Assembly: GCF_000172995.2 (NCBI RefSeq) | Contig: NC_014729.1 | Location: 1,170,001-1,202,000 of the forward strand | Direction of reading: 5' to 3' | Source of the DNA: Halogeometricum borinquense DSM 11551 | Lineage (GTDB): Archaea > Halobacteriota > Halobacteria > Halobacteriales > Haloferacaceae | DNA: 32,000 nt | Shown: positions 11,782 to 28,821 of the stretch, one piece after another | Position numbering within the stretch: the stretch's first letter is position 1 | Layout of the letters: each line of letters starts with the position of its first letter | Program-made: the position numbers and the translations under genes | Notes under the pieces: generated by a model | The model's input: only the letters and a program-made list of their open reading frames with translations | Database searches by the model: none | What the model was told of the DNA's origin: nothing

Positions 11782-11880
11782 TGGAAGGGGCGGGAGTCGA
11801 ACCACGCGAAGCCGTAAACCCGGGCGACCGCAGAGGGTCGCTGCCGGAAGTTTATTGCTCTACCACTGAGCCACCCTTCC
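11782..11880 (-). ncRNA. aberrant tRNA-like element (pseudo-tRNA, t-element or unusual intron-containing tRNA)
   Basis: The minus strand reads GGAAGGG-TG-GCTC-AGTGGTA-GAGC ... TTCGACT-CCCGC-CCCTTCC-A. The acceptor stem is a perfect 7 bp, with a canonical D arm and T loop. The T-stem 5' strand is GCGTGG and needs a bulged U. The anticodon arm is an AT-rich TAAAC/GTTTA stem enclosing a 30-nt insert. Confidence 0.5.
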
Positions 11881-13402: not shown

Positions 13403-15241
13403 TTAGTAACTACGGACTTTCGGTTCGTACGTCTTGTTTTCGCCTTCGAGGACGACCGGCCGGTACCACAGTTCCGGTTCGCCGTCGTTCCACGACAGCA
13501 GCGTGTGCTTGAGCCACTTGTCGTCCTTGCGCTCTTGGTGTTCTTTCCGCCAGTGTGCGCCGCGGAACTCGTCGCGGGCCAACGCGCCGAGCGTGATCGC
13601 TTCCGCGGTGTCGAGGATGTTCCGCGTCTCGATGGTGTGGATGAGGTCGGTGTTGAACGTGCGCGATTTGTCTGCGACGTACACGTCCTCGTACTTCTCG
13701 CGCGCCTTGCGGATGTCCCGAAGCGCCTCCTTCAGTCCATCCTTCTCGCGGAACACGTTCACGTGCTGGGTCATCGTCTGCTGGACCTCAGCGCGAATCT
13801 CGGCGTGCTGGACACCGTCGTCCTTCTCTAGCAGCGACTCGACGCGCTCGCGTTCGGCATCGAGGGCGCGCTGGACGTACTCCTCACCTGAGAGCGACCC
13901 TGCGGCGGCCCCTCCATCGGCAACCACATCTTCGCCGGAGGAGACTGCGCCGGGTTCGACGGGCGTCTCGACTTCGCCGACTTCCCATTCGCCGCGCTGA
14001 CCCGTCTCGATCTTCGCTTCGCCGAGGTCACGGCCCGCGGCGTGGTGACCGGCACGCTTGCCGAACACGATGAGTTCCGGCAGGGCGTTGCCGCCGAGGC
14101 GGTTCGATCCGTGGACGGAGGCGCAAGCGCACTCACCGGCCGCGTAGAGGCCGGAGATACACGTCTCTCCGTTCTCGTCGGTCTCGATGCCGCCCATCGC
14201 GTAGTGCTGACCGGGCTTGACGGGCATCGGTTCTTCGAGCGGATCGACACCCTCGAAGTCTTCCGAGAGGTGGACGATGTTCTCCAGTCGGTCGATGATA
14301 CGCTCTTCACCCAGATGGCGCATGTCGAGGTGGACGTACTCGTCCTCGATACCGCGACCCTCGTTCACCTCGGTGAGTTCTGCGCGCGAGACCACGTCGC
14401 GGGAGGCGAGTTCGCCATCGTTGTTTGCGTAGCCGTACTCGAACATGAAGCGCTCTCCGTCCTCGTTGTAGAGGATACCACCCTCCCCGCGGACACCCTC
14501 GGTGATGAGGACACCCGTCGAGGGGAGCGTCGTCGGGTGGAACTGGATGAACTCCATGTCTTCCATCGGAACGCCCGCGCGGTAGGCCATCGCAGGGCCG
14601 TCGCCGGTGTTGGCGACGGCGTTGGTCGTGTGGTCGAACACCTGACCGGGACCGCCGGTTGCGAGGATGACGCCGTTACGCGCGTGGAACGCCGAAATTT
14701 CACCGGATTTGATGTCGTAGGCGACGACGCCGTGACAGGTCCGGTCTTCGGGGTCCTCCTCGTCGGAGACGGCAAGACGCGTGACGTACCACTCGTCGTA
14801 CACCTCGATGCCGCGTTTGACCAACTGCTCGTACATCGTGTGCAGGAGTTGGTGGCCCGTCTCCGCACCGGCGTACGTCGTTCGGGGGAACGACATGCCA
14901 CCGAACGGACGCTGGCTCACTCGCCCGTCGTCGTCACGGGAGAACGCAAGTCCCCAGTGTTCCAGTTGGATGACTTCTTCGGGGCTGTCCTGACAGAGTG
15001 TCTCGATAGCCGGGGCGTCGCCGAGATAGTCCGACCCCTTCATCGTGTCGTAGGCGTGTTGCTCCCACGAGTCGCCCTCGCGGAGGGCGGCGTTGATGCC
15101 ACCCTCGGCCGCGCCCGTGTGACTGCGGACGGGGTGGAGCTTCGAGACGATAGCAACGTCTGCTCCTTCTTCTTGTGCCGCGATTGCCGCGCGGAGACCC
15201 GCGCCGCCCGCGCCGACAACGATAACGTCGTGTTCGTGCAT
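13403..15241 (-). CDS. sdhA: succinate dehydrogenase flavoprotein subunit
   Basis: FAD-binding N-terminus VIVVGAGGAGLRAA, the histidyl-FAD region RSHTGAAEGG, and HPT/GEGG blocks typical of SdhA/FrdA. Confidence 0.95.
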   Translation of the reverse strand: MHEHDVIVVGAGGAGLRAAIAAQEEGADVAIVSKLHPVRSHTGAAEGGINAALREGDSWEQHAYDTMKGSDYLGDAPAIETLCQDSPEEVIQLEHWGLAFSRDDDGRVSQRPFGGMSFPRTTYAGAETGHQLLHTMYEQLVKRGIEVYDEWYVTRLAVSDEEDPEDRTCHGVVAYDIKSGEISAFHARNGVILATGGPGQVFDHTTNAVANTGDGPAMAYRAGVPMEDMEFIQFHPTTLPSTGVLITEGVRGEGGILYNEDGERFMFEYGYANNDGELASRDVVSRAELTEVNEGRGIEDEYVHLDMRHLGEERIIDRLENIVHLSEDFEGVDPLEEPMPVKPGQHYAMGGIETDENGETCISGLYAAGECACASVHGSNRLGGNALPELIVFGKRAGHHAAGRDLGEAKIETGQRGEWEVGEVETPVEPGAVSSGEDVVADGGAAAGSLSGEEYVQRALDAERERVESLLEKDDGVQHAEIRAEVQQTMTQHVNVFREKDGLKEALRDIRKAREKYEDVYVADKSRTFNTDLIHTIETRNILDTAEAITLGALARDEFRGAHWRKEHQERKDDKWLKHTLLSWNDGEPELWYRPVVLEGENKTYEPKVRSY

Positions 15242-15293
15242 TGTGTGAATTATTGTCGTGGGTTAGGACTGGCTGAACTTGAGGATTGCCCGT

Positions 15294-16172
15294 TCACCAG
15301 AACTTGAGGTTGTTCTTGACCGCTTCGCGCTTCAGCTCCTGAATGTGTTCCGTGAGGGGGATATCCTTCGGACACACTTCGGTGCAGGAGAACTGCGTCT
15401 GACAGCGCCAAACGCCGTGTTCCTGTTCGAGAATCTCCATCCGGTGTTGCTTCATGTCCTCGCCCTCGCGTTCGTCCATCGTAAAGCGGTAGGCCTTGTT
15501 GATGGCCGCCGGGCCGAGGTACTTGTTGTCGCCCGCGGCGATGTTGCACGAGGACATGCAGGCACCGCACCAGATGCACCGCGTGGACATCTTGATCTTC
15601 TCGCGGTTTTCACGCGTCTGCCGCTGCTCTTCGAGTTCGCCGTCCGGCAGGTCGTTCGTCTGGAAGTACGGTTCGACCGACTCCATCTGGTCGTAGAAGT
15701 GCTCCATGTCCACGACGAGGTCTTTGACGACCTCCTGGTGGGGGAGCGGTTCGATGCGGACGGGTTCTTCGAGGTCCGACAGTTGCGTCTTGCAACCGAG
15801 TCGCTGCGAGCCGTTGACGAACAGCGCGTCGGAGCCACAGATGGCCTGCCGACAGGAATGTCGGAACGTCAGGCTGGAGTCGTAGTGGTCGCGCGCGTAC
15901 ATCAGCGCGTCGAGGACGGTCATCCCCTTGTGGTAGGGGACGTGGAAATCGTCGAACCGCGGTTCCTGTTTGCCCGCGACTTCGGGGTCGTAGCGGAACA
16001 CCTTGAGGAGGTACGTATCCTCGCCGGCCGCGGCCGATTCGGCCTCTTCGGCCTGTCGCTCGCGCTCCTCGGCTTTCTGCCGTTTCTTCTCCATGCGCGC
16101 CTGTTGCGCGGCGGACGTCTCGGTGTCCGCGGACGATTCGTCTTCGACTTGTTCCGGAACTTGCGTACTCAT
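15294..16172 (-). CDS. sdhB: succinate dehydrogenase iron-sulfur subunit
   Basis: Cys clusters for 2Fe-2S (CRQAICGSDA...C), 4Fe-4S (CIWCGACMSSC) and 3Fe-4S (CQTQFSCTEVCP). The N-terminal extension is charged. Confidence 0.95.
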   Translation of the reverse strand: MSTQVPEQVEDESSADTETSAAQQARMEKKRQKAEERERQAEEAESAAAGEDTYLLKVFRYDPEVAGKQEPRFDDFHVPYHKGMTVLDALMYARDHYDSSLTFRHSCRQAICGSDALFVNGSQRLGCKTQLSDLEEPVRIEPLPHQEVVKDLVVDMEHFYDQMESVEPYFQTNDLPDGELEEQRQTRENREKIKMSTRCIWCGACMSSCNIAAGDNKYLGPAAINKAYRFTMDEREGEDMKQHRMEILEQEHGVWRCQTQFSCTEVCPKDIPLTEHIQELKREAVKNNLKFW

Positions 16173-16173
16173 G

Positions 16174-16551
16174 TTAGAAGGGGAGGAGAGCGATTCCCGC
16201 CCACTCGTTTGCGGTTCTGATTCCCTGCACGATCAGGAGGATGCTCGCTGCGATCAGCGTCCACTTGACGGCAGTCTTGCGCGTGCCTTCGATCCCCTGA
16301 TTCACCAGCGCGTTGTAGACGCCGTTGACGCCGTGGAACGTCGCGGTGATGAGGAACAGCACCATCAGCGAGTAGTACGTCCACTGCTGCATCCGTGCCG
16401 CCGACATCTGGAACGTCACGTCGGCCGCGTGGTGGACGAAGTGAAGCAGGAAGAAGTGGAACGCTAGCACTACCACGAGGAACGCGGCCGTGATGCGCTG
16501 CCAGAGCCATCGGCGGCCGCCACGTTCGAACGAGGAGTAGTGTTCTGCCAT
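16174..16551 (-). CDS. sdhD: succinate dehydrogenase membrane subunit
   Basis: 125-aa three-TM protein tightly packed between sdhC and sdhB (1-nt gaps). Confidence 0.8.
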   Translation of the reverse strand: MAEHYSSFERGGRRWLWQRITAAFLVVVLAFHFFLLHFVHHAADVTFQMSAARMQQWTYYSLMVLFLITATFHGVNGVYNALVNQGIEGTRKTAVKWTLIAASILLIVQGIRTANEWAGIALLPF

Positions 16552-16552
16552 C

Positions 16553-16945
16553 TCAGAACACCCCCGCCACGAACGTTGGGACGCTGGCGACGACTATCGC
16601 ACCCGTCAGTGCCAGCGACGCGTAGAAACTCTTGTCCTGTGCGTGAAGCCCCACGCCGAGATCGACGAGGAGCAATCTGAGGCCGTTGAGGATGTGGAAA
16701 ACGGCCACCGCGAGCAGGCCCACTTCGAGAATTCGGACCACGAGCAGACTTTCGAGCGTCTGAATCGTGTTAGTGTACTCCGCCTGCCCGGTCAACGCCG
16801 TCGAAAGGACGGCGATGTGGGTGAATAGGTATCCCACCAGCACCCAGCCGGTGAACTTGTGGAAAATCCAGGCCCACATCCCTGCCGAGAACTCCTTCCA
16901 GCGGCCGAAGTCCTCTATGAGGCCTCGATTGTAAGACTGACTCAT
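16553..16945 (-). CDS. sdhC: succinate dehydrogenase cytochrome b subunit
   Basis: 130-aa three-TM protein, the first gene of the sdhCDBA cluster. Confidence 0.8.
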
Positions 16946-17088: not shown

Positions 17089-18117
17089 TCACGCCCGAAC
17101 GGTCTCGCCGTCGGGTGACTGCTCGCGTTCGACGACGCGGCGGACGGGTTCTTCGAGTTCGACGAGGTGGCACAGCGGATTCCCCGGATAGACGACTGGG
17201 TTCTCCAAGACGCCAACGAGGAGGCCGGTAAACGGCGCTTGAATCGTCACGTTGTCGTCCTTGAACGGGTTGGTGATGGTGCAGATGCGGTCGCCTTCGT
17301 GGACGAGTGCGCCGCGGTCGTAGTGCATATCCACGATGCCGCCCGCGTCGGCGCGAATCCACGTCTTCTCGCTGTCGTCGTCGATGACCGTTCGCCAACC
17401 GGGCCATCGGACGGCGGTGGTGTCGCGTAACCCGTACTCCGCGAAGACGCTCTCGACGCCCGCGAGTGCTTCGTCAATGAGTTCGCGTTGGAACCGATGT
17501 GCTTCACCCATTTCGACGGTGATCGTCGGCACACCGACGGCTGTCGCCTCGGTGCGGAGCATCCCGCTGGAACCCTCCCCGGCGATAATGACGTGCGATC
17601 CGAACGCCCTCGCCAGTCGTGCGCTCCCGTCGTGTTCCATGTTTGCGCGGACGTGGATCATGTTCGTCCGCCCGCGCGTGGAGGTATGGAAATCGATGCC
17701 GAAATCGCAGGGGGCGATGAAGTTATCGAAAATGCGAGCGGCCATCCGCTTTGCACTCGTTGAGTCTTCGCGCCCGGGGAACGACCGATTCAGGTCGCGG
17801 TCATAAATCGGAAGATATCGCTGTTGAGCCAAGAATCCGGGAACGTTCAGGACGGGCATGCAGACGAGCGTCCCGGCGAGATCCGAGAGGTCCCACTCGT
17901 GGGCTACCTCACGCACTACCTCGATGCCGTTGAGTTCGTCACCGTGTGCAGCGGCCGAGAGGAACGCCGTCGGCCCGTCGCGTTCGCCGTTGACGATGGT
18001 GACGGGGATACGCACCGGATCGCCGAGATACGTCTCACTGATGCCGTAACGGATGTTCTGCGTCTCGCCCGGCGCAACCTTCCCGCCGTTGTACGTGAAC
18101 GCCCCATCGTCGCCCAT
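17089..18117 (-). CDS. succinylglutamate desuccinylase/aspartoacylase (AstE/AspA, M14-like) family deacylase
   Basis: Zn-binding H-x-x-E motif (AAHGDELNG), a downstream DFHTS histidine, and the typical length of about 340 aa. Confidence 0.85.
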   Translation of the reverse strand: MGDDGAFTYNGGKVAPGETQNIRYGISETYLGDPVRIPVTIVNGERDGPTAFLSAAAHGDELNGIEVVREVAHEWDLSDLAGTLVCMPVLNVPGFLAQQRYLPIYDRDLNRSFPGREDSTSAKRMAARIFDNFIAPCDFGIDFHTSTRGRTNMIHVRANMEHDGSARLARAFGSHVIIAGEGSSGMLRTEATAVGVPTITVEMGEAHRFQRELIDEALAGVESVFAEYGLRDTTAVRWPGWRTVIDDDSEKTWIRADAGGIVDMHYDRGALVHEGDRICTITNPFKDDNVTIQAPFTGLLVGVLENPVVYPGNPLCHLVELEEPVRRVVEREQSPDGETVRA

Positions 18118-18138
18118 ACCGGTCCTCGGGTTGCGGGA

Positions 18139-18146
18139 TATATAAA
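18139..18146 (-). promoter_or_regulatory. TATA box candidate for the deacylase gene
   Basis: The minus strand reads TTTATATA, 22-29 nt upstream of ATG 18117. This is consistent with a leaderless haloarchaeal transcript. Confidence 0.4.
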
Positions 18147-18234
18147 CACCGGCAACGTTCGACGATAGCGTTCTCCGTGCAAAGACGGCGTGACACCGGC
18201 ATTACTTTGATAGCGCGGGCTATTACGTAGTGGT

Positions 18235-19593
18235 ATGTCTGGCGACGGAGATTCGGTTCGTGTGGGTGTGTTGTCGCTACACAACAGCAAGGAGACGAAG
18301 GCTATCTTGAACGCGGTAGACGACTTGGGTCACGAGGGCGTCTGGCTCCGCCGAGAGAACACGGCAATAAGTATCGAAAACGGAGAAGTGTCGGTCGAAC
18401 CAGAAGTAGACATCATTGCGAATCGGTTACTGCTATCGAACACTGAGGAACCGGCCGAACTGTTGGGATTGGCGAGTACGTTCCAACGCATTCGACCGAT
18501 GTTGAACGAACCGTCGGCGGTGCTGGCGGCGATTCACAAGTTCGCTACTGCGGCGACGCTTGCGAACTGGAACATTCGGGTTCCCGACGCACTCCTCGCA
18601 CTCTCGAACGACCGACTGAATAAGGACCGCGACCGTTTCGGGGACGTCGGGGTCTACAAGTCGGCTATCGGGACTCACGGCGGTGGAACGTGGAAGGTTG
18701 ATCTCACGGAGGCCGTCAATCCAAAGGTCGGTAACCGACAGGCGTTCCTACAGGATCTCATCGAACGAGACGACACCCGACACCGCGACCTGCGCGTCTA
18801 CATCGTCGATGGCGAGATTATCGGGGCAATGTACCGCTACGCGCCGGACGGCGACTGGCGGACGAACGTCGCACTCGGGGGCGACGTGATGAACGCGACG
18901 GACGAGATGCCCGAAGAGGCCCGCGAGACGGCGCTGTACGCGGCGGAAGTGATGGAACTCGACTACGTCGGCGTGGACCTCGTAGAGGGCGAGGACGGCT
19001 GGTTCGTCCTCGAAGTCAATCCGACAGCCGGGTTCAAGGGTCTCTACAAGGCAACAAATCGGTCGCCTGCGCCGTTCATCGCCAAACTTGCTATCGAACA
19101 AGCGGGCGGGACGGTCGAACAATCCCGCGTCGAAGATCTCGCGGCGACGCTTGACGATTCCGAGCCGCGAAGCAAGCCCCGTGTGAATCCAAGTCCCGAC
19201 GGTGAGATACCGCTCATCGGCTACATCGAGGAGGTCGTCGTTTCCGGGACGAGCGGTTCGACGCAGGCCTATGCCAAGTCCGACACCGGAGCGACACGGA
19301 CGAGCATCGACACCTCGCTGGCAGCGGAAATCGGAGCCGGCCCGATCAAGAGCATGACGCGCGTGAAGTCGGGATCGATGAAGTCCGGCAAGGCCCGACC
19401 CGTCGTGGACCTCGTCATCGGTATCGCCGGAACGCAACACACCGTCACCGCAAGTGTCGAAGACCGGTCGCACATGGACTACCCACTTCTTCTCGGGCGC
19501 GACATCCTCCAGCACTACCGCGTGGACGTGCGCCGTCGCGTAGACGAGGGTGGGAAAGAGACGGACAGCGAAGAAGAGTACCTCGAAGAATAG
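18235..19593 (+). CDS. rimK: RimK-type ATP-grasp alpha-L-glutamate ligase fused to a retropepsin-like (putative ATP-dependent zinc protease, PF05618-type) domain
   Basis: The N-terminal ~290 aa form an ATP-grasp (LRVYIVDGEIIGAMYR, GVDLVEGEDGWFVLEVNPTAGF). The C-terminal ~120 aa carry AKSDTGATRTSID, VKSGSMKSGKARPVV and DYPLLLGRDIL..YRVDV, typical of the stand-alone proteins found next to bacterial rimK. Confidence 0.85.
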   Translation: MSGDGDSVRVGVLSLHNSKETKAILNAVDDLGHEGVWLRRENTAISIENGEVSVEPEVDIIANRLLLSNTEEPAELLGLASTFQRIRPMLNEPSAVLAAIHKFATAATLANWNIRVPDALLALSNDRLNKDRDRFGDVGVYKSAIGTHGGGTWKVDLTEAVNPKVGNRQAFLQDLIERDDTRHRDLRVYIVDGEIIGAMYRYAPDGDWRTNVALGGDVMNATDEMPEEARETALYAAEVMELDYVGVDLVEGEDGWFVLEVNPTAGFKGLYKATNRSPAPFIAKLAIEQAGGTVEQSRVEDLAATLDDSEPRSKPRVNPSPDGEIPLIGYIEEVVVSGTSGSTQAYAKSDTGATRTSIDTSLAAEIGAGPIKSMTRVKSGSMKSGKARPVVDLVIGIAGTQHTVTASVEDRSHMDYPLLLGRDILQHYRVDVRRRVDEGGKETDSEEEYLEE

Positions 19594-19643: not shown

Positions 19644-20207
19644 ATGGACCCGATACGAAACGACGAGCAACTGGCTCCACTCGTGGAAGAACACGGCGAA
19701 CTCGCCATCGAACCCGCCGATGACGAGTTCGAGCGCTTCGTCGTCTCGATTATCAACCAACAGCTCTCGACGCAATCTGCGGCGGCTATCAGAGAACGCC
19801 TGTTCGACCGGTTCGAGGTAACGCCGGAAGCGATGCTCAACGCCGACGAAACAGCGCTTCGGGATGTTGGACTCTCCTCACAGAAGATTTCGTACATCCA
19901 AAATGTAGCGACGGCGTTTCAAACGGACGACCTGACCCGTGCGGGAATGGCAGATCTAACCGACGAGGACGTTCTGATGCGACTGACAGAGATTCGCGGC
20001 GTCGGCGACTGGACCGCAAAGATGTATCTCATGTTCGTCCTCGGACGCGAGGACGTGTTCCCCGTCGAAGACCTCGGTATTCGGAAGGCGATGGCGGAAC
20101 TGTACCGGATGGACGAGAACGACCGGGCTGTGATGGTCAAACGCGCCGAGGCGTGGCGGCCGTACCGAAGCGTCGCGTCCCGGTACCTCTGGCGTGTCGT
20201 GGACTGA
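19644..20207 (+). CDS. DNA-3-methyladenine glycosylase II family (AlkA-like, HhH-GPD)
   Basis: Helix-hairpin-helix block LTEIRGVGDWTAKMYLMF followed by the catalytic-Asp region FPVEDLGIRKA. Confidence 0.8.
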   Translation: MDPIRNDEQLAPLVEEHGELAIEPADDEFERFVVSIINQQLSTQSAAAIRERLFDRFEVTPEAMLNADETALRDVGLSSQKISYIQNVATAFQTDDLTRAGMADLTDEDVLMRLTEIRGVGDWTAKMYLMFVLGREDVFPVEDLGIRKAMAELYRMDENDRAVMVKRAEAWRPYRSVASRYLWRVVD

Positions 20208-20332: not shown

Positions 20333-20374
20333 CTGAGGGAAACGTTGAAACGCCTCGCATCCGAGAATCCGGGT

Positions 20375-22354
20375 ATGGAGTTAGACGATATCAACACTAT
20401 CACGGTTCTCGGTGCAGGGAACATGGGTCACGGCATCGCCGAAGTTGCCGCTCTCGCCGGGTACCAAGTTAATCTGCGAGACATCAACGAGGAGTTTGTC
20501 CAGAACGGCTACGACCAGATCGAGTGGTCGCTCGGCAAACTCGCTGAGAAGGATCAGCTTTCCGACGAGGAGGCCAACGCCGCCCTCGAACGCGTGGCGA
20601 CGTACGTTGATCTCGCCGAGTCAGTTTCTGACGCCGACGTGGTCATCGAGGCCGTCCCCGAGAAGATGGACATCAAAAAGGACGTGTACACCGAGTTGGA
20701 GGCGGCCGCCCCCGACCACACCATCTTCGCGACGAACACATCCAGCCTCTCTATCAGCGAACTCGCGGACGTGACGGAGCGACCCGAGCAGTTCTGCGGG
20801 ATGCACTTTTTCAACCCACCCGTTCGGATGCAACTCGTCGAAGTCATCTCGGGTGCAGAGACCGCCGAGGAGACGATGGATGTCATCTCGGATCTTGCAG
20901 AGGCGATGGACAAGACGCCGGTCCGCGTCCACAAGGACAGCCCCGGTTTCATCGTGAACCGTATTCTCGTCCCCCTGATGAACGAAGCGGCGTGGGCCGT
21001 CGAATCCGGCGATACCACCATCGCGGAGGTTGACTCGACGGCGAAGTACGAAATCGGCCTGCCGATGGGGAGCTTCGAACTCGCAGATCAGGTGGGTATC
21101 GACGTGGGCTACCACGTCCTCCAGTATATGCACGAGGTGCTGGGCGATGCCTACGAACCATGTCCGCTCCTCGAAGAGAAAGTCGAGGAAGAGAAACTCG
21201 GCAAGAAGACGGGCAAGGGATTCTACGACTACGAGGATGGCGAGGGTGCGCAGGTTCCGTCCGATCAAACCAGCGAAGACGTTAGCCGTCGTCTGATGGC
21301 CGTGATGGCAAACGAAGTCGCCGGTCTCATCCAAAACGACGTGGCCGACGCCGACGCAATCGACCGCGCGGTGATGCTCGGCGGCGGGTTCCCCGACGGT
21401 CCCGCAAAGATGGCCGACGACGCGGGGCTGGAGACACTCGTGGAGACGCTCGACGAACTGCACGAAAAGACGGGTGCCGAGCGCTACGAGGCGGTTGACC
21501 TCCTCCGCGAACTCGCGGAATCCGGTGACCGCTTCCACGGGAGCGACGGCGGGGACGACGCCGACCCCTACGAGTTCGAGAACATCTCTGTCGAGATTCG
21601 TGATCGCGTGGGACACATCGAACTCGACCGTCCGCACCGGATGAACACCATCAGCTCCGACCTCGTGGACGACCTGTCGGGCGCTATCGACGCACTCGGC
21701 GCAGACGATGACGTGCGCGCGATTCTCCTCACCGGTGCCGGTGATCGTGCGTTCTCCGCCGGTGCGGACGTGCAGAGTATGGCTGGCGGCGCGGGCGACC
21801 CAACCGCCGGAGCGGAACTCTCGCGGAAGGGCCAGCGCACGTTCGGTAAGCTTGAGGAGTGCGACAAGCCCGTCATCGCCGCCATCGACGGTTACTGTCT
21901 CGGCGGCGGAATGGAACTCTCGATGTGTGCGGACCTCCGCATCGCAACGAAGCGTTCGGAGTTCGGCCAGCCCGAACACAATCTCGGTCTGATTCCCGGA
22001 TGGGGCGGTACCGTCCGCCTCCAGCGTATCGTCGGCACCGGCCGCGCGAAGGAGATTATCTTCACCGCCGACCGCTACGAGGCCGAGACGATGGCCGACT
22101 ACGGCTTCATCAACGAACTCGTAGAGAACGACGAGTTCGAAGAACAAGCCTTCGAGTACGCAAAGCAGTTCGCGCAGGGACCGCCCGTTGCCCAGCGGTA
22201 CACCAAGCGCGCCATGCACAACGGCTGGGAAGATACTGACGCCGGTCTCGAAGTCGAAGCGCAGTCATTCGGCCTTCTGTTCACGACAGACGACCTGATG
22301 GAGGGAATGACGGCGTTCATGGGCGACCGCGAACCCGACTTCAAGGGAGAGTAA
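20375..22354 (+). CDS. fused 3-hydroxyacyl-CoA dehydrogenase / enoyl-CoA hydratase
   Basis: N-terminal Rossmann motif ITVLGAGNMGHGIA and an HCDH core. The C-terminal crotonase fold carries FSAGADV and GYCLGGGMEL. The track start at 20345 is TTG, so ATG 20375 is preferred. Confidence 0.9.
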   Translation: MELDDINTITVLGAGNMGHGIAEVAALAGYQVNLRDINEEFVQNGYDQIEWSLGKLAEKDQLSDEEANAALERVATYVDLAESVSDADVVIEAVPEKMDIKKDVYTELEAAAPDHTIFATNTSSLSISELADVTERPEQFCGMHFFNPPVRMQLVEVISGAETAEETMDVISDLAEAMDKTPVRVHKDSPGFIVNRILVPLMNEAAWAVESGDTTIAEVDSTAKYEIGLPMGSFELADQVGIDVGYHVLQYMHEVLGDAYEPCPLLEEKVEEEKLGKKTGKGFYDYEDGEGAQVPSDQTSEDVSRRLMAVMANEVAGLIQNDVADADAIDRAVMLGGGFPDGPAKMADDAGLETLVETLDELHEKTGAERYEAVDLLRELAESGDRFHGSDGGDDADPYEFENISVEIRDRVGHIELDRPHRMNTISSDLVDDLSGAIDALGADDDVRAILLTGAGDRAFSAGADVQSMAGGAGDPTAGAELSRKGQRTFGKLEECDKPVIAAIDGYCLGGGMELSMCADLRIATKRSEFGQPEHNLGLIPGWGGTVRLQRIVGTGRAKEIIFTADRYEAETMADYGFINELVENDEFEEQAFEYAKQFAQGPPVAQRYTKRAMHNGWEDTDAGLEVEAQSFGLLFTTDDLMEGMTAFMGDREPDFKGE

Positions 22355-22423: not shown

Positions 22424-22498
<75 letters not shown>

Positions 22499-22509
22499 CT
22501 CCATTCTAC

Positions 22510-22684: not shown

Positions 22685-23788
22685 ATGGACGAATTAGACG
22701 AACTCCCCGTCGTCACCGACGCATCGAGAGAGTACCTCAACCAGCGTCAACTGCTCGACTACCGGGCCGAGCGAGAAGCGTATCTCGAATGGCTCCTCAC
22801 GTTCGGAAAGAGACCGGACGAGGCGGTCGGGTACGCCCCGGGCACGGTGAAATCGGGTGCGTACCGGACGGACCGGTTCTACCGGTTCGTCTGGGACCAA
22901 GAGGGCGGGTACACGGCGAACGTCACGCACGATCACGCCGACGCGTGGATGAAGCATCTTGCACGCGGGGACACGGGCGCGACGAACAAGCGAAACTGCC
23001 AGAAAGCGGCCAAGCGGCTGTTCAAATGGCGACATCACGAGCACGGTCGCAGTGAATGGGATCCGGATATCACGTTCGCTGCCGACTCCAGTACGAACCC
23101 GCGGGACTACCTAACGCGCGAGGAGCGATCCGCGGTGCGCGAGGCAGCGCTCGAATACGGCTCCGTTCCAAATTACAAGAGCCTCACGCCGACGGAGCGA
23201 GACCGGTGGAAGCAGTATCTCGCCCAGCGATTCGAGAAACCGAAGTCGGAGGTCGGGCCCGACGACTGGGACCGCGCGAACGGGTGGAAGGTTCCGTCGC
23301 TAGTTTGGGCGAGTCTGGACGCGGGGCTTCGCCCTGTCGAAGTGAAGCGCTCGCAAGTCGGGTGGGTTGACACCGATAACGCGGTCCTCCGCATCCCGAA
23401 AGAGGAGAGCTCGAAAAATCGAGACCACTGGGTTGTCGGTCTCCAGTCCCGAACGGCCGAAGCGCTCGGCAACTGGCTCGAAGAGCGCGAGGCGTACCCG
23501 GAATACGACGATACGGAATCGATATGGCTGACTCGGAAGTCGAACCCGTATAACACGAAGACGCTTCGATACCTACTGCATCAACTCTGTGATATCGCCG
23601 ACATCGACACGACTCACCGGCAAATGAGTTGGTATACGATCCGCCACTCCGTCGGAACGTACATGACCCGTGAAGAGGATCTCGCGGCCACTCAGGCACA
23701 GCTCAGGCACAAGAGCGCCGAAACGACCATGAAGTACGATCAGGTACCGGTAGAAGATCGTCAAGATGCGTTAGACCGGATGGGATAG
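22685..23788 (+). CDS. tyrosine recombinase / phage-type integrase
   Basis: Catalytic-region blocks GLRPVEV (Arg I), WYTIRHSVGTY (H-x-x-R region) and TTMKYDQ (Tyr). The N-terminal SAM-like domain is typical of haloarchaeal provirus and plasmid integrases. Confidence 0.9.
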   Translation: MDELDELPVVTDASREYLNQRQLLDYRAEREAYLEWLLTFGKRPDEAVGYAPGTVKSGAYRTDRFYRFVWDQEGGYTANVTHDHADAWMKHLARGDTGATNKRNCQKAAKRLFKWRHHEHGRSEWDPDITFAADSSTNPRDYLTREERSAVREAALEYGSVPNYKSLTPTERDRWKQYLAQRFEKPKSEVGPDDWDRANGWKVPSLVWASLDAGLRPVEVKRSQVGWVDTDNAVLRIPKEESSKNRDHWVVGLQSRTAEALGNWLEEREAYPEYDDTESIWLTRKSNPYNTKTLRYLLHQLCDIADIDTTHRQMSWYTIRHSVGTYMTREEDLAATQAQLRHKSAETTMKYDQVPVEDRQDALDRMG

Positions 23789-23886: not shown

Positions 23887-25005
23887 TCAGAGGATGTTCG
23901 CTGCTGAGCGCCGGAGTTCTTCAGTCGGGTGGACGTATCGAGCAGCTGACGACGTACTGTTTTGTCGTAACACTTCGGCAACGATTTTGAGGTCTTTGTG
24001 CTCCTCGTACGTGTACGTACCGAGGGTGTGTCTGAATGAGTACCAACAGAGCTTTCGGCCTCGTTCGGTGATTCCGGCTTCCTCGATGAGGTTATTGAGG
24101 AGGTAGTTGAGCGTTTGTGAGCTGTACGGGTTGCCTTTCCGTGTGAGCCACATGTGATCAGAGTCGTCGTATTTGCTGATGTTCGCTCGTTGCTCAATCC
24201 ACAACTCAAGCGGTCGAGTGGCTTTTTCCGGTAGAGCCTGGCTCCACTCTGAATTGTTTTTGACCGCGTGCTCTGCAGGGATGATGATCGTCTTTGAATC
24301 GGAATCATACCAGTGGACTTGCATCCGCTTGATGAGCGCTGGCCGCCATCCTGCGGCCTTTACTGTCCCGATGAGCGACGGAATTTTCCAATTCCTGTTG
24401 ACCCGGTCCCAATCTGCCGGTCTGACTTCGTCCTTAGGTTTGCCGAGTTCCTGTGCGAGGTACCCCCGCCAACGGTCCCGTTCGTCCGGGGAGAGGTTAT
24501 TGTATTTCGGGATGGACTTGTAGGTCAGCGATGTTTCCCAGAGCGAATTAACCTCGGCTTTGTTGAACGGGTCTGCTCCGTTCTCAGCCGGCTTGTCGTT
24601 GAAGCTGATTTCAGGTTCCCAGTCTGAACCGTGGAATCGGAACCAGTTGACTAGTGCGTTCGAAATCTTTCGTTTGCTCCCCTCAGAATAGCGCTCGCCA
24701 TCGCGCCGGCGGAACTCGTCAGTGGCGAGCGCTTCAATCACTTGATCCGCTTGTTTCGGTGAGATCTCTGTGGCGGGTTCATCGGTCTCCCAAACCCACC
24801 GAATAGCTTGTAGTACTCGTGAGACTCGCGTTCCGATTGACCGTTCCGCATATCCGATCTCTTTTCGCGGATTCTTTCCCTCTGAACGAAGATATTGCTC
24901 GAACTCCTCAAGGGTCGATTCGAAGATGACCTTTTGTCGCGTGCCCAACTGCGGGAACGACTCCCCTAAGTCATCTGCAGAATAACTACTCATGACTGCC
25001 ACCAT
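23887..25005 (-). CDS. tyrosine recombinase / phage-type integrase (paralogue of 22685..23788)
   Basis: Blocks GWRPALI, WYSFRHTLGTY and AARYVHP. It shares ERDRW..YLAQ...KPK.EV.P.DWDR and WLTRK.NPY blocks with the other integrase. The start is uncertain (ATG 25005 or 24993). The track start at 25170 is a TTG. Confidence 0.85.
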   Translation of the reverse strand: MVAVMSSYSADDLGESFPQLGTRQKVIFESTLEEFEQYLRSEGKNPRKEIGYAERSIGTRVSRVLQAIRWVWETDEPATEISPKQADQVIEALATDEFRRRDGERYSEGSKRKISNALVNWFRFHGSDWEPEISFNDKPAENGADPFNKAEVNSLWETSLTYKSIPKYNNLSPDERDRWRGYLAQELGKPKDEVRPADWDRVNRNWKIPSLIGTVKAAGWRPALIKRMQVHWYDSDSKTIIIPAEHAVKNNSEWSQALPEKATRPLELWIEQRANISKYDDSDHMWLTRKGNPYSSQTLNYLLNNLIEEAGITERGRKLCWYSFRHTLGTYTYEEHKDLKIVAEVLRQNSTSSAARYVHPTEELRRSAANIL

Positions 25006-25432
25006 CCAAGTCGAACTGCGAATCCCGAGGAGCGTTTCAACTGACTTGGAGACCACCTCCTCGGACCTGATTCCCCGAGGTGGTAATCGATTGCCGAGTG
25101 ATGCAACGTGATCATCGATCTGAACAGTTACAGTAACCACCCGTTTTAAAACATTAGTGTTGAGAATCAATCAATACCGACGGAGCTGAGTGAAAGAGGT
25201 TGAATACGGGGGTATGAGCTGCTAAAAGTCAAGATCGAGTCTCAGGGGGGCGTATTGAGAATCCACAGCTTTCGCCCCTGCTACGCAAGGGGCACCCCAT
25301 ATTTTGAGAGCGAACGAAATGAATTCTCCAAAACCCGGTACAAGCTTACGGATAGATGCGAAGCAATTTCCTCACCACAGATTGGGTTCCAGTTGAGTCC
25401 ATAGACAGAGCAATCGAGTACCTTGGATTTGA

Positions 25433-25492
25433 GTACGTCTCTATGTACATACTCACGTACATACCTGGGTACGTGAATGAGTACCTACTTAC
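25433..25492. repeat. five phased 12-nt units each beginning GTAC
   Basis: GTAC occurs at 25433, 25445, 25457, 25469 and 25481. GTACATAC is repeated at 25445 and 25457. An additional GAGTAC lies at 25416. Confidence 0.6.
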
Positions 25493-25616
25493 ACACCACC
25501 GGGAACGGGAACCTCAGGAGAATCTGATCAACGAGAAGATGACAGTGTAGTGCTCCCACACCGACCAAGCACAAGCTGTTGAAGTCACAGTACGGTGTAA
25601 CGCGATTCACCTGCTG

Positions 25617-27887
25617 CTACAGCACTTGACGAACTATTGAACCAATTCGCTCGATCACTGCAGTTTCGCTTTGGTCATCTCGCGCGGCTTCACAGAGGTC
25701 GTCGAAACACTTGGCGAGTGTGGCTACGATGTCCCGAGGGAGTGCTCTTGGGTCAACGACTGGAATGTTTTTGACATCCCCTGGCTCAACTTTTGGTAAT
25801 CCGTCTGCGAGTACCCGCTGCTGCTGAGCGATTCCAGAATCACCGAACAAGTAGTTCAGGTACGCCAGTAGCGCCTTCTCGCCTTGCCGGGTTATCTCCG
25901 GGTCCGGATAGATCCCGTAGTAACTGTTCAGATGTCTGGCGTCCGTCTCATTATCTATCGCGCGGAATCCTGATCGGCCTGTCACCGTCACGAGGATCGG
26001 CGCAGTATCACCGCGCTCTACTCGGTACCAGGGATTCCGGCCGTGTACTGTTGACCTCGTCGAGAGTGTTTCGTGGTCGGTCAGGCCATGACGCAGATAC
26101 TCAATTATTGGGGGTTCTGGATCCGTGGTCAGTGAGTCTTCTGCCCAGTCGGCTGACCCAGTGTCGTCGTTATAGGTCGTCTCGGGGACTCCCGGTACCT
26201 GGTCAAGGTAGTAGAGCAGCCACGTTGGCCGCCCGTGGCTATCGTAGTCATTCCAATCCTCGGGACGGATATCATACCCATCGACGTACCGTCGGCTTGG
26301 AACGATGCGTGACAGGCACTGCGGGTCGATTCCCCAGTCATCGACTTGATCCTGTGAGAGACAGAAGAAGTCGTTCTCACCGGTCTGCAACCCCCGGTGG
26401 ACGTCTGCGAGATCCGAGAGTGGCGGTAGGTCGGACCGCTCGTCAGAGGTCGGCTCGAACAAATTATCCCATCGTTCCTCTGGATTCAGCTCCGACTGCT
26501 CAATACAGTTGATTACTCCCCAGTCCGTCTCTCCACAAGAACCATGCCGAGCTGCCTCTAGTTTCGTCTGAACGCCAGGGTCATTGTCGACGCGAATGAA
26601 CCGTGTCGCCCCGACATCGGCTTCGTCATCGGTCGCTTCAAGGAGCACGACCATACTGGTTGTCTGTGCCGTTTCGAATTTTGACTCGTTCTTTGGGTTG
26701 TCCAAAAGAAGCGCCTTGATGTCGAATTCCCGGAGCAAGAATTGCTTGAGGGGCTCACCGAAACCCCGTGAGAGGAAGTGATGAGGCGTGAGGACGGCCG
26801 CCCGATCCCCTGTGTCGAGGAACCGTCCGAGATGGTAGTAGAAGTACGCGTACAGCGGGGACGTTTTCGGGATCTCTAATTCAGTTTGGTTCTCGGCTTG
26901 CGCGTTGAGTTTGTCTTTGTACGCCGAAGAGAGTGATTCGTGGCGCGTGTAGGGCGGGTTACAGAGGATCGCGTCCACGTCTTGGGTTAAGTCCGCTGGA
27001 TCCAACTCGAAGAAATCAGTTCTACGGGTCTCGTGCCGTTGCCCGGAGATCGTCTGTGCGACTCGTCCCATAAGCGCTGCAAGTGGACTACGATCAACCC
27101 CATTAACACGGCCTGGATCAGTGCTTATCTCCCAATCCGGATGGAACGGTGCCGACAGTTCGCCAGCACCCATCCCAGGGTCAAGCACGGTGTCGTCACC
27201 GCTGACAGCCCAGGTTCGCATCAACTCTGCAAGTTCCGTCGGTGTTCGGTGCTGTCCGAGAACCCGACGATGATTTCCGGCGATCAACGTCTCGTACAGA
27301 TGTCCGATATCCGTTGCTGGCTGGGTGGACTCCAGAAGCTGATCTCGTGCTTCTGTCACGGCGATGGTCTTAGCTTCGACGCCCCAGAGGATCTCATCTA
27401 ATGCACACGCAGTAAACGCCGAGTCACCGGTTTCCTCGTAAGCGATCTTGAACTGTTCCTGCGCGTTGCCTTCGAATTCCGGGAGGCCGCCGCGTCGATG
27501 GTACCATTCGTGGAGCGTGGCCTTCAACAGGAGTCCGAACGCCGCTTGGTTAGCGATGATCGAAGGTGTCGCGTCGTCACTGGGAACGTATCCGTGGAGG
27601 CCACACCACGATTCGACTGCTGCTTGAATTTTGGGTGACGGATCCGCGATTCCGGACTCAAGATCTGCAGCAGTTGCTTCCAATTGCTCGATGAGGTCGT
27701 CGCTGTAGGCCGACTCGTTCCTCAACCCAGTACTGACGCGCTCGCCTCTCGGCGGCTCTGGTTGTGACCGAGCAAGCGGGGACGTGGCGTCGATACTGGT
27801 TACCGGGATATCTGGTTCACAATCGACAGCCGCATAGGTGCAGTTGAGATGTGTTACTCGGCGAAATCTGCCCCGTTGAGTTGTCAT
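25617..27887 (-). CDS. N6-adenine DNA methyltransferase, gamma class (Eco57I/TaqI-like architecture)
   Basis: Motif X GQHRTPTELAELM, motif I VLDPGMGAGEL and motif IV NPPY. The C-terminal target-recognition-like region carries LADVHRGLQTGENDFF and LLAYLNY. About 210 aa at the N-terminus are unassigned. Confidence 0.9.
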   Translation of the reverse strand: MTTQRGRFRRVTHLNCTYAAVDCEPDIPVTSIDATSPLARSQPEPPRGERVSTGLRNESAYSDDLIEQLEATAADLESGIADPSPKIQAAVESWCGLHGYVPSDDATPSIIANQAAFGLLLKATLHEWYHRRGGLPEFEGNAQEQFKIAYEETGDSAFTACALDEILWGVEAKTIAVTEARDQLLESTQPATDIGHLYETLIAGNHRRVLGQHRTPTELAELMRTWAVSGDDTVLDPGMGAGELSAPFHPDWEISTDPGRVNGVDRSPLAALMGRVAQTISGQRHETRRTDFFELDPADLTQDVDAILCNPPYTRHESLSSAYKDKLNAQAENQTELEIPKTSPLYAYFYYHLGRFLDTGDRAAVLTPHHFLSRGFGEPLKQFLLREFDIKALLLDNPKNESKFETAQTTSMVVLLEATDDEADVGATRFIRVDNDPGVQTKLEAARHGSCGETDWGVINCIEQSELNPEERWDNLFEPTSDERSDLPPLSDLADVHRGLQTGENDFFCLSQDQVDDWGIDPQCLSRIVPSRRYVDGYDIRPEDWNDYDSHGRPTWLLYYLDQVPGVPETTYNDDTGSADWAEDSLTTDPEPPIIEYLRHGLTDHETLSTRSTVHGRNPWYRVERGDTAPILVTVTGRSGFRAIDNETDARHLNSYYGIYPDPEITRQGEKALLAYLNYLFGDSGIAQQQRVLADGLPKVEPGDVKNIPVVDPRALPRDIVATLAKCFDDLCEAARDDQSETAVIERIGSIVRQVL

Positions 27888-27916
27888 CGGAGTGCTTCGG
27901 CTTCATGAACCACCCC

Positions 27917-27926
27917 GGTTTAAAAC
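27917..27926 (-). promoter_or_regulatory. TATA box candidate for the methyltransferase
   Basis: The minus strand reads GTTTTAAACC, 30-39 nt upstream of ATG 27887. It is flanked by two CCCCGGTTT copies (27913-27921 and 27949-27957). Confidence 0.35.
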
Positions 27927-28095
27927 TCTGCCCTCAAACCCCCGAACCCCCCGGTTTCACCACTTCTAGAGCGAAACTTGACGCGAAACCACACCACATT
28001 CGCCGACGGAGCATCCGTCCTACGCAGGGCCGCAATGAAATGTTCGGAATCGCCCAACGGTGAATCGCCATCTTCTAACATCCATATGATGGGTT

Positions 28096-28185
28096 TTCTG
28101 GACACACCCCGTGGAAATTCAGAATATACTGCTTGAGATCGGCTGTCGGCCTCAAATAATTCTGGACACCCCCCGTCCCAATTCA
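28096..28185. repeat. two 26-nt imperfect direct repeats upstream of the methyltransferase
   Basis: TTCTGGACACACCCCGTGGAAATTCA (28096-28121) and TTCTGGACACCCCCCGTCCCAATTCA (28160-28185) match at 22 of 26 positions. Their starts are 64 nt apart. Confidence 0.55.
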
Positions 28186-28381
28186 AGTGGGTGTTCTGAT
28201 AGGATACAAGTATTGAGCGTCACGCGCTTGCAGGAAGAGTAACCTGCTTTACGACCTTCAAAGCGATATTATTCCATCTCCGTATCCAACAAAGCAGTGT
28301 CTCTCATACACTTCGCTGCAGGCACGATGCGCAGTTACGCCAGTCACTTATGAGGTGCGGTGTCCGAGGCAGCCGCTGGAG

Positions 28382-28696: not shown

Positions 28697-28786
28697 TGCA
28701 AACCGGCAAAACCGCCAGTGACATTTAAAGGCTTGCCGCAGAGATCCGATTCTCGACCGATTCAGGCCCACAGACACCAGAATTCA

Positions 28787-28821
28787 GACTGACAGCATGA
28801 CTTCCCGACTGACAGCACGAC
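28787..28821. repeat. tandem 15-nt repeats GACTGACAGCA(T/C)GAC
   Basis: Copies at 28787-28801 and 28807-28821 match at 14 of 15 positions with a 20-nt period. They lie 91-125 nt upstream of ATG 28696. Confidence 0.5.

What the first reader, a model, noticed from the sequence alone, without database searches (positions are those of the whole stretch)
17089..19593. Divergent pair: RimK ligase fused to a retropepsin-like domain, facing an AstE/AspA-type deacylase
In bacteria, RimK adds C-terminal poly-alpha-glutamate to ribosomal protein bS6. It is often encoded next to a small stand-alone PF05618 protein, called RimB in Pseudomonas as far as I recall. Here both are one polypeptide (ATP-grasp, linker, DTGA-containing domain). 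A zinc deacylase of the family that cleaves N-acyl-Glu/Asp bonds is transcribed divergently from a shared 117-nt promoter region. Archaea have no bS6, so the substrate is unknown. The trio looks like a writer, processor and eraser set for glutamyl tails on a protein or cofactor.
Basis: partly seen in the sequence, partly recalled or inferred. Interest (0 to 1): 0.6.

Follow-up and report, generated by a model that had tools for sequence, protein, structure and literature searches.

The report
Haloarchaeal polyglutamate ligase–protease fusion with deacylase
This Halogeometricum locus encodes a glutamate-adding ligase fused to a polyglutamate-type protease, next to a zinc deacylase; the same three activities occur as three-gene operons in bacteria, but here the organism lacks the only known protein target.

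Summary
ORF 18235-19593 (+) is a RimK-family ATP-grasp ligase fused to a C-terminal RimB-like (PF05618) retropepsin domain with intact DTGA and GRD motifs. ORF 17089-18117 (-) is an AstE/AspA-family zinc amidohydrolase. They are separated by 117 nt holding two conserved TATA-like boxes.

The pairing is not a local accident. It is kept in 71 of the 80 closest haloarchaeal loci, in Haloarcula, and as a same-strand tandem in two distant uncultured lineages. The five nearest bacterial homologues of the deacylase that I examined all sit in rimK / rimB-like / astE-like operons.

The locus is therefore the haloarchaeal, fused form of a conserved three-part module, most likely for making and breaking alpha-polyglutamate. 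A bacterial RimB-RimK hybrid was published in 2025, but with the opposite domain order and without the deacylase partner.

The acceptor is unknown, because archaea lack bS6. One new clue: all 120 close homologues end in a disordered acidic tail, ...(D/E)EE-[Y/L/F]-L-E(1-4)-COOH, which resembles the Glu-Glu end of bS6 and may be a built-in acceptor.

Verdict: new variant of a known kind, moderately interesting, biochemistry untested.

The parts
17089..18117 (-). AstE/AspA-family zinc amidohydrolase (342 aa). It is the deacylase / carboxypeptidase-like partner.
   Evidence: PF24827 matches at 158.9 bits against a cut-off of 25. The best NCBIfam hit, DoeB, scores 101.8 against a cut-off of 402.7, so the protein belongs to none of the named equivalogs. 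H58, E61, R100, N110, R111, H144 and E202 are invariant in alignment A3. The best PDB sequence hits are DoeB 6twm and two structural-genomics AstE/AspA proteins.
18118..18234 (.). 117-nt divergent intergenic region carrying two back-to-back core promoters.
   Evidence: Read directly from the sequence. Promoter elements were compared across loci.
18139..18146 (-). TATA box (TTTATATA on the minus strand), 22-29 nt upstream of the deacylase ATG. This implies a leaderless transcript.
   Evidence: A TTTATA-like element sits at the same distance in nearly all compared haloarchaeal loci. Promoter function is inferred.
18195..18212 (+). Conserved ACCGGCA motif followed by a TATA-like CTTTGATA, 23-40 nt upstream of the fusion-gene ATG.
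   Evidence: The pattern (A/T)CCG(G/T)CA-N3-5-CTTTGAAA or CTTTTA is conserved across genera. Function is inferred.
18235..19140 (+). RimK-family ATP-grasp alpha-L-glutamate ligase domain (residues 1-302).
   Evidence: PF08443 matches. TIGR00768 scores 139.6 against a cut-off of 143.4. K102, K142, D248, E260 and N262 are invariant. Foldseek top hits are LysX/ArgX and RimK with target TM-scores of 0.80-0.87.
19141..19209 (+). Linker (residues 303-325).
   Evidence: pLDDT is lower here, falling below 50 at residues 319-322, and the model shows no secondary structure.
19210..19542 (+). RimB-like retropepsin domain (residues 326-436). The DTGA codons are at 19282-19293 and the GRD codons at 19495-19503.
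   Evidence: PF05618 and RloA hits. Foldseek matches RloA2 (E 2.7e-7), Ddi1 and HIV-1 protease. The domain has net charge +3 and pI 9.5 within a protein of pI 4.75.
19543..19593 (+). Disordered acidic C-terminal tail (residues 437-452, ...DSEEEYLEE) plus the stop codon.
   Evidence: pLDDT is below 50 for residues 440-452. Net charge is -8. All 120 close homologues end in Glu, with a terminal motif [Y/L/F]-L-E(1-4).

Best explanation
What it is. The locus encodes the haloarchaeal form of a conserved three-activity module for alpha-linked polyglutamate.

Proposed steps:
1. The N-terminal ATP-grasp domain uses ATP to add L-glutamate, one residue at a time, to a C-terminal glutamate of an acceptor.
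2. The fused, positively charged retropepsin-like domain cuts long glutamate runs, as RimB does. It presumably acts as a dimer inside the RimK-type oligomer, and it may also stimulate the ligase.
3. The divergently transcribed AstE/AspA-type zinc enzyme has a carboxypeptidase-like site built to hold a terminal acidic amino acid. It removes terminal glutamates from the resulting short oligo-Glu, or from short tails, and so returns free glutamate.

Acceptor. Archaea have no bS6, so the acceptor is most likely free Glu or oligo-Glu, and/or the enzyme's own conserved, disordered ...L-E-E C-terminal tail.

Shown versus inferred. Shown here: the domain identities, intact catalytic motifs, the folds, and conserved genomic linkage in archaea and bacteria. 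Inferred: every chemical step, the acceptor, and the physiological role. The role is possibly glutamate, cation or osmotic homeostasis.
For: Domains and motifs.

Linkage in haloarchaea. Of the 80 closest genome loci, 65 have the divergent pair with a 99-414 nt spacer. Four more are divergent with a 1-2.1 kb spacer, and two have the deacylase downstream on the same strand. Three of the nine misses are contig ends. Twenty-three pairs have lost the sdh neighbour and still keep the pair. Haloarcula (63% identity) keeps the divergent pair.

Linkage in distant lineages. Two uncultured low-GC lineages (38-42% identity) have the deacylase 45-59 nt downstream on the same strand.

Linkage in bacteria. 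All five examined bacterial loci holding the nearest bacterial deacylase homologues carry rimK plus a small RimB-like gene in one operon.

Published biochemistry of the family. RimK makes poly-alpha-Glu. RimB cleaves runs of at least 5 Glu and stimulates RimK. A RimB-RimK hybrid is proteolytically active (PMC11957791). RloA needs 8 Glu and has a basic substrate channel (PMC12239564).

Protein features here. The protease domain has pI 9.5 in an acidic halophile protein. The closest structural relatives of the ligase domain, LysX/ArgX and RimK, all act on a protein's C-terminal Glu. The Glu-ended tail is conserved with synonymous codon turnover, while the 14-26-residue stretch before it varies (106 distinct tails in 120 sequences).
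Against: No biochemical or expression data exist for any archaeal member; five literature searches found nothing.

The ATP-grasp domain is only 24% identical to the RimK of the bacterial trios, and the protease domains match only at profile level. The archaeal and bacterial modules may therefore be analogous assemblies rather than one inherited unit.

All characterised AstE/AspA enzymes act on small N-acyl amino acids, not on peptides.

Several distant fusion relatives and plasmid paralogues have lost the DTG motif, and many paralogues lack an adjacent deacylase.

Six of the 80 loci have no deacylase within 6 kb.

The 80 loci are the closest relatives out of 470, so the sample is biased towards Haloferacales.
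Confidence: 0.55

Rival explanations
1. The ligase glutamylates a specific other protein in trans, an archaeal functional counterpart of bS6. The protease domain and the deacylase act as endo- and exo-erasers of that tail. The enzyme's own tail plays no acceptor role.
For: The family precedent is RimK acting on bS6 and RimB trimming it. The closest folds act on protein C-terminal Glu. About 80% identity across genera suggests a conserved macromolecular partner.
Against: No candidate target is encoded nearby. Only sdh, a DNA glycosylase and a FadB-like gene flank the pair, and that flanking synteny is lost in Halorubrum. The published D. psychrophila RimBK did not glutamylate RpsF.
Confidence: 0.2
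2. The pair acts on a small molecule or cofactor. The ligase adds one or a few Glu to a metabolite, as in MptN/CofF-type cofactor capping or a NAAG- or beta-citrylglutamate-like N-acyl dipeptide, possibly an osmolyte. The AstE/AspA enzyme hydrolyses that N-acyl amino acid.
For: The second-best NCBIfam match, after the general RimK subfamily model, and the nearest stand-alone relatives lean towards MptN-like. Every characterised AstE/AspA member is a small-molecule deacylase (established knowledge). The mammalian RimK-like enzymes and aspartoacylase share the N-acetylaspartate metabolite family (papers surfaced). Bacterial trios sit beside MscS, MgtE, CorA and universal stress protein genes.
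Against: The MptN, CofF and LysX equivalog scores are far below their cut-offs: 115.7 of 350, 51.4 of 300 and 94.9 of 275.6. A polyglutamate-type endopeptidase domain with intact catalytic motifs and a basic surface is conserved and fused to the ligase. That has no role in a small-molecule pathway.
Confidence: 0.15
3. LysW-like carrier chemistry. The enzyme's own C-terminal Glu serves as a covalent carrier for an amino compound attached by the ATP-grasp domain and later released by the zinc deacylase, as LysK releases lysine from LysW.
For: The top structural matches are LysX/ArgX in complex with LysW. The protein has a conserved disordered tail ending in Glu. A metallo-deacylase is the conserved partner.
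Against: No kinase, reductase or aminotransferase genes accompany the pair. The LysX equivalog score is well below its cut-off. The retropepsin domain is left unexplained.
Confidence: 0.05
4. The two genes are merely neighbours, kept together by haloarchaeal synteny and without a shared function.
For: The sdh operon, a glycosylase and a FadB-like gene are also often syntenic. Plasmid paralogues of either gene often occur alone.
Against: The pair outlasts the flanking synteny; 23 pairs have no sdhC nearby. It reappears in a different orientation in distant lineages and as operons with overlapping genes in three bacterial phyla.
Confidence: 0.03

Closest known systems
RimK / RimB system of Pseudomonas (PMC4741518, PMC7343187, PMC11957791)
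   Same: It combines an ATP-grasp alpha-L-glutamate ligase with a PF05618 retropepsin-like protease specific for glutamate runs. The catalytic motifs of both are present here.
   Different: In Pseudomonas these are two separate proteins, the target is bS6, and regulation involves RimA and c-di-GMP. Here they form one polypeptide, the organism has no bS6, and there is a third conserved partner (AstE-like) that those papers do not mention.
Bacterial RimBK hybrid, e.g. Desulfotalea psychrophila DP2392 (PMC11957791)
   Same: The same two domains are fused. The hybrid protease is active, and no bS6 glutamylation was seen, which hints at another substrate.
   Different: The domain order is reversed (RimB N-terminal there, C-terminal here), so this is an independent fusion. 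The published survey covered bacteria only. Examples of that order seen here (P0175, P0248, P0249) lack the Glu-ended tail, and the two whose contigs were read (P0248, P0249) have no AstE neighbour.
Three-gene rimK / rimB-like / astE-like operons in Vibrionaceae, Phaeobacter and Acaryochloris
   Same: The same three activities are genetically linked. The deacylases are 32-38% identical to the one in the window, with every catalytic residue shared.
   Different: The genes are separate, the bacterial RimK is the bS6-type enzyme (24% identical), and the bacterial RimK and RimB proteins lack the ...LEE tail. I found no publication on this trio.
Eukaryotic tubulin glutamylation (TTLL ATP-grasp ligases and CCP M14 carboxypeptidases)
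   Same: By analogy only: an ATP-grasp writer is paired with a zinc carboxypeptidase-fold eraser of Glu tails. This comparison rests on established knowledge and was not tested here.
   Different: The subfamilies are unrelated. TTLLs build gamma-linked branch points on side chains. There is no endoprotease component.
MptN, CofF and LysX/ArgX (archaeal RimK-family enzymes)
   Same: They share the ATP-grasp subfamily and have the closest folds and profile matches.
   Different: All equivalog scores are far below their cut-offs. None of these enzymes carries a protease domain or pairs with an AstE-like gene.

Membership tests
RimK-family alpha-L-glutamate ligases (PF08443 / TIGR00768) | Profile match above the curated cut-off | tested here: inconclusive
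   PF08443 scores 80.3 bits against a cut-off of 21, which is met. TIGR00768 scores 139.6 bits against a cut-off of 143.4, just below.
RimK-family alpha-L-glutamate ligases (PF08443 / TIGR00768) | ATP-grasp fold with conserved nucleotide- and Mg-binding residues | tested here: met
   K102, K142, D248, E260 and N262 are invariant in alignments A1 and A2. The GVD...EVN motifs align with bacterial RimK. Foldseek matches LysX/ArgX and RimK with target TM-scores of 0.80-0.87.
RimK-family alpha-L-glutamate ligases (PF08443 / TIGR00768) | ATP-dependent alpha-L-glutamate ligation | not testable with these tools
   This needs an enzyme assay.
bS6--L-glutamate ligase RimK proper (NF007764) | Equivalog score, and bS6 as substrate | tested here: not met
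   The score is 55.8 bits against a cut-off of 331. bS6 is bacteria-specific (established knowledge), so the defining substrate is absent.
MptN (NF040720), CofF (TIGR04443) and LysX (TIGR02144) | Equivalog score above the cut-off | tested here: not met
   Scores are 115.7 of 350, 51.4 of 300 and 94.9 of 275.6.
RimB-like retropepsin peptidases (PF05618) | Profile match above the cut-off | tested here: met
   PF05618 scores 34 bits against a cut-off of 27. RloA1-3 give partial hits. PDB sequence search finds 9g59 at E 6.9e-4.
RimB-like retropepsin peptidases (PF05618) | Catalytic D-T/S-G-A motif and the G-R-D/N motif | tested here: met
   D350-T-G-A and L-L-G421-R-D423 are present. D, G and G-R are invariant in alignment with bacterial RimB-like proteins.
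RimB-like retropepsin peptidases (PF05618) | Retropepsin fold | tested here: met
   The domain model has pLDDT 85.9. Foldseek finds RloA2 (E 2.7e-7), RloA and Lpg0085, then Ddi1 and HIV-1 protease.
RimB-like retropepsin peptidases (PF05618) | Homodimeric active site and cleavage of Glu runs | not testable with these tools
   Only monomer models were available. The only indirect support is the basic charge of the domain (pI 9.5).
Published RimBK hybrid (PMC11957791) | RimB domain N-terminal to RimK | tested here: not met
   Here the ATP-grasp domain spans residues 1-302 and the RimB-like domain residues 326-436. RimBK-order proteins were seen separately (P0175, P0248, P0249).
AstE/AspA zinc amidohydrolases (PF24827) | Profile match, the H-x-x-E...H zinc site, the catalytic Glu and the Asn-Arg carboxylate clamp | tested here: met
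   PF24827 scores 158.9 bits against a cut-off of 25. H58, E61, H144, E202, N110, R111 and R100 are invariant.
DoeB, AstE and aspartoacylase equivalogs | Equivalog score above the cut-off | tested here: not met
   Scores are 101.8 of 402.7 for DoeB, 17.5 of 305.65 for AstE and 34.3 of 180 for ASPA.
Conserved ligase / protease / deacylase module | Genomic linkage kept across lineages and gene orders | tested here: met

The most novel reading that the evidence does not exclude
The fusion protein is its own substrate. Its conserved, disordered ...(D/E)EE-[Y/L/F]-L-E(1-4) C-terminus would be the built-in primer, replacing bS6. The ATP-grasp domain would extend it with alpha-Glu. The adjacent retropepsin domain would clip it, releasing free oligo-Glu or resetting the enzyme. 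The AstE-like enzyme, acting as a prokaryotic deglutamylase, would trim it residue by residue. That would make a self-contained auto-polyglutamylation cycle, possibly tied to glutamate, K+ or Mg2+ homeostasis in salt-in halophiles.
Probability: 0.25. Interest if true: 0.75.

Novelty: new variant of a known kind. Interest (0 to 1): 0.55.

Why it matters
RimK/RimB is the only studied prokaryotic protein-polyglutamylation system, and it is understood solely through bS6. This version is highly conserved: about 80% identity across haloarchaeal genera, and relatives in 470 species-representative genomes. It occurs in organisms that cannot have that target, and it comes with a third conserved enzyme that the literature I could search does not mention.

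If the module works as proposed, three things follow:
- Alpha-polyglutamate turnover extends to archaea.
- The AstE/AspA family gains its first peptide- or tail-directed member.
- There is a tractable model, because Haloferax volcanii has an 85% identical homologue. That model could settle whether polyglutamate acts as a free polymer, as a self-modification or as a tag.

The recurring MscS, MgtE, CorA and universal stress protein neighbours in bacteria also suggest a testable link to ion or osmotic homeostasis.

Tried and rejected
- Known pathway enzymes (LysX, MptN, CofF, bS6-RimK, DoeB, AstE, ASPA): all equivalog scores are far below their cut-offs. The nearest stand-alone ligase relatives are also generic RimK-family proteins.
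- An RNA element in the spacer: the Rfam gathering scan of the window found only tRNAs.
- Direct BLAST of the protease domain against a bacterial RimB: no significant hit. Homology shows only in profiles, multiple alignment and fold.
- A strict link between an intact DTG motif and the Glu-ended tail: among distant representatives it looked real. However, protease-dead Natrialbaceae plasmid paralogues still end in ...RLEE, so the tail is not simply a protease substrate.
- Literature on the deacylase partner or on haloarchaeal RimK: nothing relevant was found. The one survey likely to have catalogued such gene neighbourhoods (Iyer et al. 2009, Mol Biosyst, PMC3268129) is not held. I therefore cannot exclude that the linkage was noted there.
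- Taxonomy of the distant low-GC contigs: cluster look-ups gave no names. Their acidic predicted proteins and archaeal markers suggest uncultured halophilic archaea.
- An att repeat for the integrase beside tRNA-Glu: none was found inside the window.
Full report
**Observation**

The window comes from Halogeometricum borinquense; its 452-aa protein is 100% identical to a protein from that species.

ORF 18235-19593 (+, 452 aa) and ORF 17089-18117 (-, 342 aa) are divergent and separated by exactly 117 nt.

The 452-aa protein has these features:
- A RimK ATP-grasp domain: PF08443 with E 1.8e-22, and TIGR00768 at 139.6 bits, just under its 143.4 cut-off.
- A C-terminal PF05618 domain scoring 34 bits against a cut-off of 27, with additional RloA-type retropepsin hits.
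- DTGA at residues 350-353 and LLGRD at 419-423.
- A good AlphaFold2 model of the whole chain (pLDDT 88.4, pTM 0.80). It shows an ATP-grasp body (residues 1-302), a linker, an all-beta domain (326-436) and a disordered tail (440-452).
- Closest folds of the whole chain are LysX/ArgX and RimK.
- Modelled alone (pLDDT 85.9), the C-terminal domain best matches the bacterial retropepsin-like peptidases RloA2, RloA and Lpg0085, and then Ddi1 and HIV-1 protease.

The 342-aa protein is a clear AstE/AspA-family enzyme (PF24827, E 1.5e-46). Its zinc ligands, catalytic Glu and Asn-Arg carboxylate clamp are invariant. It reaches none of the DoeB, AstE or aspartoacylase equivalog cut-offs.

**Is the pairing more than chance?**

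A scan of species-representative genomes found 470 with a relative of the fusion protein. The 80 best loci were kept.

Position of the deacylase gene in those 80 loci:

| Arrangement | Loci |
|---|---|
| Divergent, spacer 99-414 nt (median 131) | 65 |
| Divergent, spacer 1-2.1 kb | 4 |
| Downstream on the same strand | 2 |
| Absent within 6 kb | 6 |
| Cannot be judged (contig end) | 3 |

Twenty-three pairs have no sdhC nearby, as in Halorubrum, so the pair outlasts the surrounding synteny. These 80 loci are the closest relatives, mostly Haloferacales, so I sampled further out:
- Haloarcula (63% identity) keeps the divergent pair.
- Two uncultured low-GC lineages have fusion proteins only 38-42% identical. 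Their deacylase (58-62% identical) lies 45-59 nt downstream on the same strand, an operon-like arrangement.
- Other distant relatives and plasmid-borne paralogues lack the neighbour.

**The same trio exists in bacteria**

The nearest bacterial homologues of the deacylase (32-38% identity) were found on plasmids and chromids. All five loci I opened carry rimK and a small RimB-like gene in the same operon:

| Organism | Gene order |
|---|---|
| Salinivibrio kushneri | rimB-rimK-astE-like, with overlapping genes |
| Acaryochloris marina | rimB, a frameshifted rimK, astE-like |
| Vibrio nigripulchritudo | rimK-astE-rimB-MscS |
| Vibrio europaeus | rimK-astE-rimB-MgtE-CorA-MscS |
| Phaeobacter inhibens | rimB-rimK-astE |

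The three-part set is therefore a recurrent module. Haloarchaea have two of its parts fused.

The archaeal ligase domain is only 24% identical to these bacterial RimKs, and the protease domains align only at profile level. The module may therefore have been assembled more than once.

**What is published**

- RimK adds Glu to the C-terminus of bS6 and makes free poly-alpha-Glu.
- RimB is a retropepsin-like endopeptidase that cuts runs of five or more Glu and stimulates RimK.
- A RimB-RimK hybrid from Desulfotalea is proteolytically active but did not glutamylate RpsF. That survey covered bacteria only (PMC11957791).
- That hybrid has RimB at the N-terminus. The haloarchaeal protein has the opposite order, so it is an independent fusion.
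- RloA proteases need about eight Glu and have a basic substrate channel (PMC12239564).
- None of these papers mentions an AstE/AspA partner. Searches for that link, and for haloarchaeal RimK, found nothing relevant.

**A new clue to the acceptor**

All 120 close homologues end in Glu. The terminal Glu run has length 1 in 31 of them, 2 in 74, 3 in 10 and 4 in 5. Leu precedes the run in 109 of 120.

The motif is (D/E)EE-[Y/L/F]-L-E(1-4)-COOH. The 14-26 residues before it vary freely, giving 106 distinct tails. The Leu and Glu codons change synonymously between genomes. Other genes in the same loci end in Glu roughly 6% of the time (after removing the fusion genes).

The tail is disordered in the model and has net charge -8. 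It follows a protease domain of pI 9.5, in a protein of overall pI 4.75.

bS6, the known RimK acceptor, also ends in Glu-Glu (from memory). The closest structural relatives of the ligase domain all act on a protein's C-terminal Glu. The bacterial RimK and RimB proteins of the trio operons have no such tail.

Protease-dead paralogues in Natrialbaceae still end in ...RLEE. This ties the tail to the ligase or to a partner rather than to the protease alone.

**Most likely mechanism**

The ATP-grasp domain polymerises alpha-Glu on free Glu or oligo-Glu and/or on its own tail. The basic retropepsin domain cuts long runs. The AstE-like enzyme strips terminal Glu and recycles it.

These steps are inferred from family chemistry and genomic linkage, not shown. 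My confidence is about 0.55.

Rivals:
- An unknown protein target in trans (0.2).
- A small-molecule or cofactor pathway (0.15).
- LysW-like carrier chemistry (0.05).
- Mere neighbourhood (0.03).

**Promoters**

Both genes have conserved TATA-like boxes 22-30 nt upstream of their ATGs. A conserved ACCGGCA motif lies upstream of the fusion gene's box. This fits two back-to-back leaderless promoters, though that is inferred.

**Verdict**

This is a real, strongly conserved and uncharacterised variant of the RimK/RimB system, with a third partner and no known target. It is a new variant of a known kind, with interest 0.55.

Noticed in passing
window 22424-22499 (tRNA-Glu), 22685-23788 (+), roughly 24000-29000: A tRNA-Glu(UUC) gene is followed by a tyrosine-integrase-like ORF (367 aa). 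A stretch of lower GC follows (0.51-0.57, against about 0.60 elsewhere). It looks like an element integrated at the tRNA. No tRNA-derived direct repeat was found inside the window.
   Followed up: partly
window 11782-11880 (-): Rfam calls a 99-nt tRNA here (43.5 bits) that ARAGORN did not report. It may be an intron-containing archaeal tRNA.
   Followed up: no
L086 5001-7289 (protein P0262); phage records LC779065.1, MW570730.1, MT647606.1: A 762-aa protein has two RimK ATP-grasp domains and a C-terminal RimB-like domain, and ends ...AKEEE. It sits inside a T4-like structural gene block (gp13, gp15, sheath). Related proteins with the ligase-then-protease order occur in Yersinia phage YerA41, where the protein is annotated as structural, and in Pelagibacter phage Mosig.
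   Followed up: partly
proteins P0169, P0179, P0223 (alignment A4): Single chains of 221-241 aa contain two tandem RimB-like DTG domains. These are possible pepsin-like pseudo-dimers built from the short archaeal-type domain.
   Followed up: no
L095 4971-6038, L100 3992-5065; also L093, L097, L098, L091: Stand-alone paralogues of the deacylase on haloarchaeal plasmids sit among cation:proton antiporter, TrkA-C, Na/Ca antiporter and mechanosensitive-channel genes. The bacterial trios are flanked by MscS, MgtE, CorA and universal stress protein genes. One distant fusion gene follows an MgtC gene. This is a recurring ion or osmotic theme.
   Followed up: partly
proteins P0130, P0135, P0141, P0151, P0152, P0157; L101 3986-5311, L103 3989-5296: Distant relatives and Natrialbaceae plasmid paralogues keep the C-terminal domain but have lost the DTG catalytic motif. 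One of them (P0135, L090) still has the deacylase immediately downstream. The domain may therefore have a non-proteolytic role, such as stimulating the ligase.
   Followed up: partly
L094 4040-4992: In the Acaryochloris marina S15 plasmid, the rimK between the RimB-like gene and the deacylase gene reads through two frames. This is either a frameshifted pseudogene or a sequencing error, and it explains why no CDS is listed there.
   Followed up: no
window 13403-16945 (-), 19644-20207 (+), 20345-22354 (+): The pair is flanked by the succinate dehydrogenase operon, by an HhH-GPD (AlkA-like) DNA glycosylase and by a FadB-like fusion protein. These flanks are syntenic in many but not all relatives.
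   Followed up: partly
L085 2471-3739 (protein P0249): A RimB-then-RimK order hybrid lies on a low-GC contig next to a prefoldin gene. The published bacterial-type domain order may therefore also exist in uncultured archaea.
   Followed up: no
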